DNA of 64,000 nucleotides. It comes from an uncultured SAR86 cluster bacterium (GTDB lineage: Bacteria; Pseudomonadota; Gammaproteobacteria; Magnimaribacterales; AG-339-G14). The stretch covers positions 541,083 to 605,082 of the forward strand of contig CACJUN010000001.1 in the NCBI GenBank assembly GCA_902596665.1. Direction: 5' to 3'. The translations under genes were made by a program, and so were the position numbers. Numbering within the stretch: the first letter of the stretch is position 1; each line of letters starts with the position of its first letter. Positions 30,514 through 33,566 of this stretch are shown piece after piece. The notes under the pieces are model-generated. The model did not search any database and had not been told where the DNA came from. It worked only from the letters and a program-made list of their open reading frames with translations.

Positions 30514-31317
30514 TCAAAATATAAATGAACTATGTTCAAAATTGATACAGGGTATTTTCATTTCTTTAGGATATTCGGGTCCAAAATAAAATAATCCTTT
30601 AGACGTAATTGTTTTACCTGCTAAGTTTCTGTCTTTAGCAGCCAGGATTTTTTTCATAATATCTGGATTTAAATTATCATCGGAAATCATAACAAGGGTG
30701 CCCATAATAATTCTTATCATATTATGTAAAAATGCATTCCCAGTAATATCAAAAAAAATAAATTCTCCCTTCCTTGAAATTTTAATTGATTCAATATTTC
30801 TAAAAGGACTGTGAGATTGACATGAAGATGAACGAAAAGAACTAAAATTATTTTCTCCAATTAAAAATTTAGAAGCTTTTTTTAACTTACTAACATTAAT
30901 TCTCTTTTGAACAGATAGAGAATAATTACTCGAAAAAACGGAACCAGTTGATCTTTCTTCAATGACGTACCTATATCTTCTTTTAATAGCTGAAAATCTT
31001 GCACTAAAATCTTTATCAACTTTTTTTATCCAAATTGCTTTTACTTGAGTCCCCATTAAGGAATTAAGCCCCTTGAGGAAAGATTCATTAGTTCTACTTT
31101 TACTTGTCTCGAAATGTACAGTTTGATTCAGTGCATGGACGCCGGAATCAGTTCTCCCTGAGCAAATTGTTGATATTTTCTGATCAAGAAATTTTGATAG
31201 TGATTTTTCAACGATATCTTGTACGGTTGTTTGACCCTTTTTTTGTCTTTGCCAGCCTTTTAAATTTGTACCTATGTACTCTAACCCAAGCGCGTACTTC
31301 TTAACTTCCTTGATCAT
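30514..31317 (-). CDS. truA: tRNA pseudouridine(38-40) synthase
   Basis: YALGLEYIG..GWQRQ; SGRTDSGVHA; FSARFSA; NAFLHNMIRIIMG. Confidence 0.96.
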   Translation of the reverse strand: MIKEVKKYALGLEYIGTNLKGWQRQKKGQTTVQDIVEKSLSKFLDQKISTICSGRTDSGVHALNQTVHFETSKSRTNESFLKGLNSLMGTQVKAIWIKKVDKDFSARFSAIKRRYRYVIEERSTGSVFSSNYSLSVQKRINVSKLKKASKFLIGENNFSSFRSSSCQSHSPFRNIESIKISRKGEFIFFDITGNAFLHNMIRIIMGTLVMISDDNLNPDIMKKILAAKDRNLAGKTITSKGLFYFGPEYPKEMKIPCINFEHSSFIF

Positions 31318-32512
31318 TTATCTTTTGAAGAAGAGTGTCGGCTTTATTTTTTTGTTCAAAATTAGGACTTAAATCAAAAACCTCATAAATGATAGCTTTT
31401 GCATCGTATGCTTTTCCCATTTCGATATAACTAACAGCTAAATTTAATCTTGCATCAATAGGATCACCAACTTCTGCATACTCATCATTGAGCAATTCAT
31501 GCGACTTATTTTTAATGAGTGAAGAAAGAATTTGGTAACTATTCCAAGCTGCTCCTTTTCTTAAATTATCAGAGACAATCCAAAAATTAGCTCTATTATC
31601 TTTCCATAAATCCTTTCTTAATCTACCTATAAAAACTTCATTAGATTTTTCAGCATGAGTAACTGGAGTTGGGAAAAAATCTTCATCAGAATCACACAGT
31701 ATGAGTCCATTTTGATTATTAATTGAATCTTTAACTTCTTCTAAATTAATTTCTTTTTCTGTTTCCAAGTGTATGACCTCTCCATGACCTCTTTGAACTG
31801 GAACTCTAACGCATGTTGCTGATACCTCAATGTCATCGGAAAATATCTTCTTTGTCTCAGTCGTAAGTTTCATTTCTTCTTCTGAATAATTATTTTCTAA
31901 GATATCGCCAGCAAGAGGTAATGCATTGAAAGCTATTTGCACTGGGTAAACATTATTAGAATGTTCTTCACCATCGAGAATTTTTCGAGTTTGTTCTTTA
32001 AGTTCTTCAGAGGCTGATTGTCCCGTTCCTGATACTGATTGATAAGTAGCAACGTCTACTCTTTTTATCTTAAATAGATCGTGAAAAGGCTTAAGAGCAA
32101 CCACCATTTGGGCAGTGGAACAATTTGGATTAGCAATTATTGCAGGCAAATTAAGATCCTCTAATCTAGATCCATTTACTTCAGGAACAATAAGTTCAAG
32201 ATCGTCTCTGTTTCTAAAAAAAGATGAATTATCTATGACAGTGCAACCTTTCTCGATAGCTTGGGATGCGTGAGATTCAGCAACTGATGATCCAGCTGAA
32301 AAAAATGCAACGCTGGCTTTACTAAAATCGAAAAGTTGAAGATCTTCAATTTCTATAATTTTTTCAAAATATTTAATTGCCTTACCTGCAGATTTAGATG
32401 AAGCGACCAAAAAAAGATTCTCAGCGGGAAACTGCTGTTCTGCAAGAATTCTCAAAAATTCTCTTCCAACCGCACCTGTGGCGCCTACTATTGCTAACTT
32501 AATATTAGACAT
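31301..32512 (-). CDS. asd: Aspartate-semialdehyde dehydrogenase fused to a C-terminal FimV-like TPR domain
   Basis: VGATGAVG; IANPNCST; TYQSVSGTG; ATCVRVPV..GHGE; WIVSDNLRKGAAWN. An extra tail of about 67 aa follows in frame and contains ARLNLAVSYIEMGKAYDAKAIIYEV. Confidence 0.93.
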   Translation of the reverse strand: MSNIKLAIVGATGAVGREFLRILAEQQFPAENLFLVASSKSAGKAIKYFEKIIEIEDLQLFDFSKASVAFFSAGSSVAESHASQAIEKGCTVIDNSSFFRNRDDLELIVPEVNGSRLEDLNLPAIIANPNCSTAQMVVALKPFHDLFKIKRVDVATYQSVSGTGQSASEELKEQTRKILDGEEHSNNVYPVQIAFNALPLAGDILENNYSEEEMKLTTETKKIFSDDIEVSATCVRVPVQRGHGEVIHLETEKEINLEEVKDSINNQNGLILCDSDEDFFPTPVTHAEKSNEVFIGRLRKDLWKDNRANFWIVSDNLRKGAAWNSYQILSSLIKNKSHELLNDEYAEVGDPIDARLNLAVSYIEMGKAYDAKAIIYEVFDLSPNFEQKNKADTLLQKINDQGS

Positions 32513-33566
32513 GATCGATAATTATTTTTGTTAATTCTTTAGTTGAACAAATTTTACTATTCTTATCAGCAATATCTTTAGTAGCGTATCCATCATTTAG
32601 AGTATTTGAGACTGCGCTTTTAATCTTTTCGGATATCTCTAATTCATTAAGTGAATACCTAAACATCATCCCAACCGAAAGAATCATCGCAATCGGGTTT
32701 ACTGTTCCTTGTCCTGCAATATCAGGAGCACTGCCATGAACTGGTTCATACAACCCTTTATTTCTATTATCCAAAGAAGCAGAAGGAAGCATCCCAATAG
32801 ATCCAGTAAGCATTGCAGAAATATCAGAGAGGATATCTCCAAATAAGTTGCTTGAAAGAATGACATCAAATTGTTTAGGATTTTTCACAAGCTGCATAGC
32901 AGCGTTGTCGACAAGCATATGACTTAATTCTATATCTGGATAATCTTTTGATACATCTATTACGACTTCTCTCCAAAATTCTGACACTTCAAGGACGTTT
33001 GATTTATCAACTGAACAAACTTTTTTGTTTCTTAAGGATGCAGAATCAAAAGCAACTCTGGCGATTCTTTCAACTTCATGCCTTTCATAAATCATTGTAT
33101 TAAAAGCAGAAGATGATTTTTTTTCTCTAGGCTCACCAAAATATATACCGCCAGTGAGCTCTCTTACGATAAGCATATCAAGATCTTTTATGATATCGGG
33201 CTTTAAGGATGATGCTTCCAAGGAACTATCAAATAAAATTGCAGGCCTTAGATTTGCAAACAGGCCTAATGAAGATCTTAGTTCTAACAACCCTTTTTCA
33301 GGTTTTTCATTAGGAGGAAGTGAATCCCATTTAGGGCCTCCCACTGCGCCAAATAAGATTGAGTCTGCTTGAGAAGCTTGATACAAAGTTTCATCTGATA
33401 CCGGGAGTCCATGAGCATCAATTGAAGCTCCACCGATAAGACATTCGATCAAATTGAAGTTTATCTTGAAACTTGATTGGATTTTTTCAAGCAAAGAAAT
33501 CGCACTTTCCATAATTTCTGGACCCACGCCATCTCCGCTTAAAAGAAGTAAATCAATGTCTTTCAT
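32505..33566 (-). CDS. leuB: 3-isopropylmalate dehydrogenase
   Basis: GDGVGPEI; LFANLRP; IVRELTGGIYFG; NLFGDILSD; YEPVHGSAPDIAG. Confidence 0.97.
   Translation of the reverse strand: MKDIDLLLLSGDGVGPEIMESAISLLEKIQSSFKINFNLIECLIGGASIDAHGLPVSDETLYQASQADSILFGAVGGPKWDSLPPNEKPEKGLLELRSSLGLFANLRPAILFDSSLEASSLKPDIIKDLDMLIVRELTGGIYFGEPREKKSSSAFNTMIYERHEVERIARVAFDSASLRNKKVCSVDKSNVLEVSEFWREVVIDVSKDYPDIELSHMLVDNAAMQLVKNPKQFDVILSSNLFGDILSDISAMLTGSIGMLPSASLDNRNKGLYEPVHGSAPDIAGQGTVNPIAMILSVGMMFRYSLNELEISEKIKSAVSNTLNDGYATKDIADKNSKICSTKELTKIIIDHV

What the first reader, a model, noticed from the sequence alone, without database searches (positions are those of the whole stretch)
31301..32512. Asd fused in frame to the FimV C-terminal TPR domain
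Seen: after the normal Asd end (WIVSDNLRKGAAWNSYQIL) the frame continues about 67 aa (31304-31504): SHELLNDEYAEVGDPIDARLNLAVSYIEMGKAYDAKAIIYEVFDLSPNFEQKNKADTLLQKINDQGS. This closely follows the FimV/HubP C-terminal motif as recalled (xxKLDLAxAYIEMGDxxxAxxILxEV, TIGR03504-type), and truA follows directly. Established: Pseudomonas-type order is leuCDB-asd-fimV-truA-trpF-accD, and the FimV cytoplasmic C-terminal TPR region is a conserved protein-interaction module of a polar hub. Inference: a deletion removed the periplasmic LysM, TM and acidic parts of fimV and joined the conserved tail to a cytoplasmic enzyme. The tail still looks intact, so it may be under selection, for example to tether Asd (which supplies diaminopimelate/lysine precursors) to a partner, or to keep a FimV interaction after loss of the membrane anchor. 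I know of no description of this fusion but could not search.
Basis: partly seen in the sequence, partly recalled or inferred. Interest (0 to 1): 0.75.

Follow-up and report, generated by a model that had tools for sequence, protein, structure and literature searches.

The report
Asd enzyme carrying a FimV tail
In one genus of the abundant ocean bacterium SAR86, a deletion removed most of the cell-pole organiser FimV and joined its last small protein-binding module to the essential enzyme Asd; the tail is conserved as strictly as the enzyme, although these cells have no pili or flagella.

Summary
ORF 31301..32512(-) encodes 403 aa: a complete, sole-copy aspartate-semialdehyde dehydrogenase (res 1-~341), a ~12-aa acidic linker, and a full-length FimV/HubP C-terminal TPR motif (TIGR03504, res 354-398). 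The modelled tail fold matches P. aeruginosa FimV TPR3 (4MAL/4MBQ, rmsd 1.0 A).

It is not an artefact. The same 403-aa protein occurs in 12 distinct SAR86 genome assemblies (most of them single-cell isolates) and in a 572-member metagenome cluster.

Sister genera keep asd, then a separate small fimV (signal, LysM-like core, TM, FimV_C), then truA. The fusion therefore arose by an in-frame deletion of the periplasmic and membrane parts. No FimV core remains anywhere in the genome.

The tail is under purifying selection: at least 21 synonymous versus 2 amino-acid changes, omega ~0.02, the same as the Asd body.

Across SAR86, fimV was cut down repeatedly (300-500 aa, 100-150 aa TM+FimV_C forms, this fusion), but FimV_C was kept in every lineage examined. 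The sampled genomes lack type IV pilus ATPases and flagella, and most of this genus lacks GGDEF proteins.

I found no other Asd-FimV_C fusion among 1.84 billion protein representatives and no paper describing one. The client of the tail is unknown. This is a new domain architecture of moderate interest.

The parts
31301..32512 (-). Whole fused gene asd::fimV_C (403 codons plus stop)
   Evidence: Single open frame. It is the only asd copy in the 1.28-Mb genome.
31490..32512 (-). Aspartate-semialdehyde dehydrogenase body, res 1-341. It ends in the normal C-terminal helix (res 318-340).
   Evidence: NF011456 407.5 bits, TIGR01296 397.4 bits, PF01118 and PF02774. Residues invariant across homologues are kept, including C131, H243, R100, R236 and Q158. 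AF2 pLDDT exceeds 90 over most of the body. Homologues end at res ~334-338.
31454..31489 (-). Acidic linker, res 342-353 (SHELLNDEYAEV). It derives from the cytoplasmic juxta-motif segment of FimV.
   Evidence: It aligns with LDEEFGEIGDP and LDEDYEEIGDP of g4 and g2 FimV. pLDDT is below 50 at res 343-348. There are 8 synonymous and 0 amino-acid changes among 12 CDS.
31319..31453 (-). FimV/HubP C-terminal TPR motif ('FimV domain'), res 354-398. The three modelled helices span 351-364, 368-381 and 385-400.
   Evidence: TIGR03504 covers 1-44/44 at 33.4 bits. The six-frame hit at C1:572401-572535 equals window 31319-31453. The AF2 core has pLDDT above 90. The six best PDB hits are all FimV TPR3 4MAL/4MBQ: rmsd 1.0-1.2 A in five of the six (5.3 A for 4mal_B), TM-score by target 0.73-0.89.
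30514..31317 (-). truA. Its ATG lies 17 nt inside the end of the fused gene.
   Evidence: In relatives, truA likewise abuts or overlaps the end of fimV.
32505..33566 (-). leuB. Its stop overlaps the asd start by 8 nt. It is the upstream member of the conserved aroC-leuCDB-asd block.

Best explanation
SHOWN.
- In the ancestor of one SAR86 genus, an in-frame deletion removed the signal peptide, LysM-like core, acidic periplasmic region and transmembrane helix of a small fimV that lay between asd and truA.
- The deletion joined the remaining ~62 cytoplasmic residues (an acidic linker plus the FimV/HubP C-terminal TPR motif) to the last helix of Asd.
- The product is the cell's only Asd. It keeps the residues that are invariant across Asd homologues.
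- It is predicted to carry a small three-helix FimV domain on a flexible ~10-residue linker.
- The tail evolves under purifying selection as strong as that on the enzyme.

INFERRED.
- The tail is kept because the FimV domain still does its usual job, which is binding a cytoplasmic client protein.
- In SAR86 that job needs neither peptidoglycan anchoring, pili, flagella nor, in this genus, a membrane anchor. Asd then serves mainly as an abundant, stable, dimeric soluble carrier.
- The client has not been identified.
For: Anatomy. AF2 models show a disordered linker (res 343-348) and three confident helices. The top six PDB matches are all P. aeruginosa FimV TPR3.

Reality of the junction: 12 distinct CDS in SAR86 genome assemblies and a 572-member protein cluster.

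Origin by deletion: g2, g4 and f3 relatives have asd, a separate fimV with TIGR03505 and TIGR03504 above cut-off, then truA and trpF. The tail alignment is gap-free over ~65 aa. tblastn of those FimVs against the own genome hits only the tail.

Selection: pairwise dN/dS is 0.025 for the tail and 0.046 for Asd. Counted as minimum changes, the tail has 21 synonymous versus 2 amino-acid changes, with P(neutral)=1.5e-13. This does not differ from the Asd body (Fisher P=0.37).

No relaxation on the long g1 stem: tail identity of g1 to g2/g4 is 38-44%, equal to that between g2 and g4 (34-45%). TruA, by contrast, is more diverged for g1 (46-48% versus 58-63%).

Order-wide retention of FimV_C despite repeated loss of the rest: 99-153-aa TM+FimV_C genes occur in g3, f2 and f4.

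There is no Met between the junction and the motif, so the tail cannot be translated separately.

Literature: the FimV domain is regarded as the main client-binding interface of HubP/FimV, and PdeB is active only when bound to it (PMC12918733).
Against: No client is identified. The known FimV/HubP-dependent systems are missing.
- Each SAR86 genome has at most one T2SSE ATPase. In the window's genome it lies in a gsp type II secretion operon.
- No FlhA is found in 31 genomes.
- No GGDEF protein is found in 15 of 16 genomes of this genus.

The selection evidence comes from a shallow crown group (dS ~0.13-0.18). The time of the fusion on the long stem is unknown.

Whether the tail docks on Asd could not be read, because model coordinates and PAE were not available. 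Raw reads, transcripts and peptides were not examined.
Confidence: 0.8

Rival explanations
1. Neofunctionalisation of Asd. The FimV domain is kept in order to bring Asd itself to a partner or a cellular site, for example envelope-growth or division sites that consume diaminopimelate. The enzyme would be the cargo rather than the carrier.
For: Asd supplies the DAP/lysine branch. The tail sits on a flexible linker suited to tethering. The last Asd helix carries genus-specific W323 and Y326, which could reflect co-adaptation.
Against: In every other SAR86 lineage the same motif is kept on a tiny membrane protein with no enzyme attached. Its selected function therefore predates the fusion and does not need Asd. 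No evidence of any localisation exists.
Confidence: 0.12
2. Intramolecular role. The three-helix tail packs on Asd or bridges Asd dimers, and it is conserved because it now stabilises or regulates the enzyme rather than binding another protein.
For: There are genus-specific substitutions in the C-terminal Asd helix. The tail shows enzyme-like constraint.
Against: AF2 gives a low-confidence linker (pLDDT below 50 at 343-348), and the same three-helix fold is predicted with or without the Asd body. The conserved FimV_C consensus positions (L, E, M, A) are retained. That is expected for the ancestral binding surface rather than for a new one.
Confidence: 0.06
3. Non-functional remnant. The 3' end of fimV survives only because truA translation or operon expression depends on ribosomes reading up to the overlapping truA start.
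For: The truA ATG lies 17 nt inside the fused ORF. In relatives, truA is likewise coupled to the end of fimV.
Against: Coupling would constrain about 20 nt, not the amino-acid sequence of 62 codons. The tail shows 21 synonymous versus 2 amino-acid changes, no stops, and a profile match over 44/44 positions after a long stem branch.
Confidence: 0.02
4. Assembly or sequencing artefact: a missing stop or a frameshift at the asd end.
For: None found. Raw reads could not be inspected.
Against: The frame is identical in 12 distinct CDS from separate SAR86 genome assemblies (most of them single-cell isolates) and in hundreds of metagenome-derived proteins from four sources. There is no room for a separate fimV start, since no Met or TM lies in the tail.
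Confidence: 0.005

Closest known systems
C-terminal TPR3 / 'FimV domain' of Pseudomonas aeruginosa FimV (PDB 4MAL, 4MBQ; NCBIfam TIGR03504 FimV_Cterm), and the same domain in Vibrio and Shewanella HubP
   Same: Full-length profile match. 34-35% identity and 1.0-1.2 A rmsd to five of the six 4MAL/4MBQ chains. It is the extreme C-terminus of its protein, lies in the cytoplasm, follows an acidic segment, and is encoded immediately upstream of truA.
   Different: It is attached to a soluble enzyme rather than to a LysM-TM polar landmark protein. The host lacks type IV pilus ATPases, flagella and (in most of this genus) GGDEF proteins, which are the systems through which the domain's known clients act.
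Reduced FimV proteins of other SAR86 lineages: 300-500 aa full-architecture forms, and 99-153 aa 'mini-FimV' forms with TM plus FimV_C
   Same: Same genomic slot and same C-terminal motif, and the pre-motif EIGDP in the g2/g4 forms (a variant of it in the mini-forms). They belong to the same trend of losing the periplasmic part while keeping FimV_C.
   Different: All of them are separate genes with at least one TM helix. Only this genus has no membrane anchor and no gene of its own.
Canonical bacterial Asd (TIGR01296 asd_B, about 331-341 aa)
   Same: Complete NAD-binding and dimerisation domains, the residues that are invariant across homologues, the position after leuB, and sole-copy status.
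   Different: It has a 62-aa C-terminal extension. No other Asd in 1.84 billion representative proteins has an extension matching this junction. It also carries genus-specific W323 and Y326 in the last helix.

Membership tests
Aspartate-semialdehyde dehydrogenase (NF011456 / TIGR01296 asd_B) | Whole-protein HMM score above the curated cut-off | tested here: met
   NF011456 scores 407.5 bits against a cut-off of 223. TIGR01296 scores 397.4 against 324.2.
Aspartate-semialdehyde dehydrogenase (NF011456 / TIGR01296 asd_B) | Active-site Cys in NPNCST, catalytic His, and substrate-binding Arg residues | tested here: met
   C131, H243, R100, R236 and Q158 fall in invariant columns of the 34-sequence alignment A4. 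Their catalytic roles are taken from established Asd literature and were not assayed here.
Aspartate-semialdehyde dehydrogenase (NF011456 / TIGR01296 asd_B) | Enzymatic activity | not testable with these tools
   Activity is inferred from the gene being the only asd copy in a 94%-complete genome.
FimV/HubP polar landmark proteins | C-terminal FimV domain (TIGR03504) | tested here: met
   33.4 bits for the tail alone and 31.2 bits in the six-frame scan, against a cut-off of 30.65, covering 44/44 positions. In the whole-protein context the score is 27.9 bits. The fold matches 4MAL/4MBQ.
FimV/HubP polar landmark proteins | Periplasmic LysM-like FimV core (TIGR03505) | tested here: not met
   There is no match in the protein. 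tblastn with SAR86 FimV cores finds nothing in the genome. Sister genera score 53-59 bits.
FimV/HubP polar landmark proteins | Signal peptide and a single transmembrane helix | tested here: not met
   No hydrophobic segment lies between the Asd end and the motif. Relatives have one, for example FYLLIGFILLLAFLLIL.
FimV/HubP polar landmark proteins | Extended acidic cytoplasmic region between the TM helix and the FimV domain | tested here: inconclusive
   Only a ~12-aa acidic linker remains, and the tail has pI 4.24. This region is already this short in the separate SAR86 FimVs.
FimV/HubP polar landmark proteins | Genomic position between asd and truA | tested here: met
FimV/HubP polar landmark proteins | Polar localisation and recruitment of clients | not testable with these tools
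   SAR86 is uncultured and there are no localisation data.

The most novel reading that the evidence does not exclude
The FimV domain has an ancient core function that is independent of pili, flagella, c-di-GMP enzymes, peptidoglycan anchoring and even membrane attachment. SAR86 has pared FimV down to that core several times. The Asd fusion would then be a natural soluble 'FimV domain only' experiment, and its still unknown client would be the conserved partner that explains why fimV sits in the asd-truA block across proteobacteria.
Probability: 0.35. Interest if true: 0.7.

Novelty: new variant of a known kind. Interest (0 to 1): 0.55.

Why it matters
FimV/HubP proteins are studied as polar hubs for pili, flagella, chemotaxis and second-messenger enzymes, and their C-terminal 'FimV domain' is considered the main client-docking site. 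SAR86 is one of the most abundant groups of marine bacteria. The SAR86 genomes sampled here lack the pilus ATPases and flagellar export gene that mark those machines.

Even so, every SAR86 lineage examined keeps the ~45-residue domain under selection. Some keep it on a 100-aa membrane stub, and this genus keeps it on a housekeeping enzyme. This points to an unrecognised function of the domain that does not depend on those machines.

It also provides minimal natural constructs for finding the client: TM+FimV_C and Asd-FimV_C. Finally, it is a clear example of genome streamlining that salvages one domain of a gene by fusing it to a neighbour.

Tried and rejected
- A word-based search restricted to the tail found only the own cluster, so it was too insensitive to serve as an architecture search. 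I replaced it with a phmmer search using res 280-403 against 1.84 billion representatives.
- In that search, the two-stretch hits P0137, P0138 and P0141 looked like possible independent fusions. They are internal duplications of the Asd C-terminus, probably assembly artefacts.
- P0135 (257 aa, with the tail) is an ABC-ATPase/Asd chimera on a 933-nt contig.
- Combined Asd plus FimV-tail alignments for a full-length model (A2, A3) placed the tail fragments on the Asd body. They were discarded. The full-length model therefore used Asd homologues only (A4), and the tail was modelled separately with A1.
- GGDEF proteins were considered as the client, since they bind the FimV domain in Shewanella and Pseudomonas. 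I rejected this for the present genus because 15 of 16 genomes lack any GGDEF. Family f3, which has a full FimV, lacks them too.
- T4P and flagellar clients were rejected on the basis.
- The g1 genomes without a FimV_C hit (G002, G006, G009) lack asd in their assemblies, and G008 is cut at a contig end. They are not exceptions.
- The TruA+TrpF tree could not resolve whether g1 is sister to g3 or to g2+g4. Whether the fusion started from a long or an already shortened fimV is therefore open. The tail's EIGDP pre-motif favours a g2/g4-like parent.

Full report
**Observation.** The minus-strand ORF 31301..32512 is one uninterrupted 403-codon frame.
- Residues 3-336 match aspartate-semialdehyde dehydrogenase: NF011456 407.5 bits, TIGR01296 397.4 bits, PF01118 plus PF02774.
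- Residues 354-398 match the FimV/HubP C-terminal model TIGR03504 over all 44 profile positions. The score is 33.4 bits for the tail alone and 31.2 bits in a six-frame scan of the genome, against a cut-off of 30.65. In the whole-protein context it is 27.9 bits.
- Asd homologues end at residues ~334-338 of this numbering.
- The neighbourhood is aroC-leuC-leuD-leuB-[asd::fimV_C]-truA-trpF-trpB-trpA. leuB overlaps the asd start by 8 nt, and truA starts 17 nt before the fused stop.

**Not an artefact.**
- The window belongs to a 1.28-Mb, 94%-complete genome of the SAR86 cluster. The fused gene is found at 98-100% protein identity in eleven named SAR86 assemblies, mostly single-cell isolates such as AG-905-N06, AG-896-P11 and AH-287-I17.
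- Counting the window's own gene, I recovered 12 distinct coding sequences with the same 403-codon frame.
- The 90% identity protein cluster has 572 members from NCBI, ENA, JGI and Tara. Of the 15 listed, 12 are 403 aa and 3 are fragments.
- Genus members without a FimV_C hit either lack asd in their assembly or have it cut by a contig end.

**Origin.** I scanned 60 relatives of the same order with TIGR03504 and read the loci.
- Family f3 and genera g2 and g4 of the window's own family have asd (with its own stop), then a separate fimV of 300-502 aa, then truA and trpF.
- Those FimVs have a signal peptide, a LysM-like FimV_core (TIGR03505, 53-59 bits against a cut-off of 43.45), a variable acidic region, one TM helix, a short cytoplasmic acidic segment and FimV_Cterm.
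- The tail of the window protein aligns without gaps to their last ~65 residues. The alignment includes the segment before the motif: NDEYAEVGDPIDARLNLAVSYIEM in the window against DEEFGEIGDPIEARINLAITYIEM and DEDYEEIGDPFETRLNLATMYIEM in relatives.
- tblastn with these FimVs against the whole genome hits only the tail (C1:572401-572598). Nothing corresponds to the core or TM parts.
- The simplest history is an in-frame deletion that removed the 5' four-fifths of fimV together with the asd stop.

**A reductive series in SAR86.** Other lineages shortened fimV in other ways.
- Genus g3 has 99-100-aa genes and family f2 has 111-120-aa genes, each with one N-terminal TM helix plus FimV_C, all between asd and truA.
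- Family f4 has 130-172-aa versions between aroC and truA.
- Every lineage I opened keeps the motif. Only this genus lacks a membrane anchor.
- A TruA+TrpF tree recovers the family (97/95 support). It places this genus on a long stem (0.79 substitutions per site) with a shallow crown. Its position relative to g3 and g2+g4 is unresolved.

**Selection.**
- Among nine species-level CDS, dN/dS is 0.046 for Asd and 0.025 for the tail.
- With 12 distinct CDS, the tail shows at least 21 synonymous but only 2 amino-acid changes (D370E, T393S). P is 1.5e-13 against neutrality, and the pattern does not differ from the Asd body (98 versus 22; Fisher P=0.37).
- The 12-residue linker has 8 synonymous and 0 replacement changes.
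- The tail core is 38-44% identical to g2/g4, which equals the identity between g2 and g4 (34-45%). TruA, by contrast, is clearly more diverged in this genus (46-48% versus 58-63%). There is thus no sign of a relaxed period on the stem.
- No Met precedes the motif, so the tail is not made separately.

**Structure.**
- With an alignment of 28 SAR86 tails, AF2 gives three helices (residues 351-364, 368-380 and 385-401 of the protein) with pLDDT above 90, and a disordered segment before them.
- The full-length model (pLDDT 91) shows a normal Asd ending in helix 318-340, a low-confidence linker (343-348 below 50), and the same three helices.
- Foldseek against the PDB returns the six chains of 'TPR3 of FimV from P. 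aeruginosa' (4MAL, 4MBQ) as the top six hits. rmsd is 1.0-1.2 A over 46-49 residues in five of the six (5.3 A for 4mal_B), TM-score by target is 0.73-0.89, and identity is 28-35%.
- A sequence-only search finds the same entry weakly, at E=0.12.

**What the tail could bind.** Papers describe the FimV domain as the main client interface of HubP/FimV. For example, Shewanella PdeB is active only when bound to it (PMC12918733). The FlhF contact lies outside it (PMC11236974). In SAR86 the usual client systems are absent.
- Each of 61 genomes has at most one T2SSE ATPase. In the window's genome it sits beside the only secretin, in a gspC-N type II secretion operon.
- None of 31 genomes has FlhA.
- A single GGDEF protein exists in several families but in only 1 of 16 genomes of this genus, and in none of the f3 genomes examined.
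- A motif scan of the own genome found a single ParA/Soj-like ATPase (C8:5698-6486) and no second deviant Walker-A protein such as MinD.
- The client is therefore unknown. I infer a function independent of those machines that needs only the soluble domain.

**Uniqueness.**
- phmmer with residues 280-403 against 1.84 billion cluster representatives found only the own cluster spanning the junction. Other multi-stretch hits are Asd self-duplications.
- No paper mentions SAR86 together with FimV, and none describes an Asd-FimV fusion.
- Two earlier notes of this scan describe the same fusion in another genome and a 111-aa mini-FimV. They agree with what I tested independently here.

**Verdict.**
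- The protein is a member of the Asd family that carries one domain of the FimV/HubP family. It is not itself a FimV/HubP landmark protein, because the core and TM features were tested and not met.
- It is a new domain architecture, restricted to one abundant SAR86 genus and functionally constrained. Its partner is unidentified.

Noticed in passing
window 31535-31546 (codons 323 and 326 of the fused gene): The last Asd helix carries genus-specific W323 and Y326. Other Asd sequences have L (25 of 28) and V/I/L/M at these positions. This may reflect co-adaptation with the appended tail.
   Followed up: partly
G000:C1:231480-246285 (outside the window): A prepilin peptidase gene followed by a complete gspC-N type II secretion operon. 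It holds the genome's only secretin and its only T2SSE ATPase, with no PilB/PilT.
   Followed up: partly
SAR86 relatives G014, G016-G018, G037, G039, G040, G042, G043, G045, G048: A single ~480-500-aa GGDEF protein is present in most SAR86 families. It is missing from 15 of 16 genomes of the window's genus and from the f3 genomes examined.
   Followed up: no
L008 (G030:C2), fimV of 440 aa: Within one sister genus, FimV length varies from 309 to 440 aa. The variation comes from tandem copies of an acidic ~37-aa periplasmic repeat (SSISDEIDLPDNEESLISFDEPDEIVELDQDLESF).
   Followed up: no
L059, L062, L065 (family f4): Here the mini-fimV (TM plus FimV_C) lies between aroC and truA, followed by accD. 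asd is not in the block.
   Followed up: no
protein P0135 (ENA contig of 933 nt): A 257-aa product joins an ABC-transporter ATPase N-terminus to the Asd C-terminus plus tail. It is most likely a chimeric metagenome contig.
   Followed up: partly
G000:C8:5698-6486: A motif scan found only one deviant Walker-A (KGGxGK[ST]) ATPase in the genome, and it is ParA/Soj-like. No MinD-type protein was hit.
   Followed up: partly
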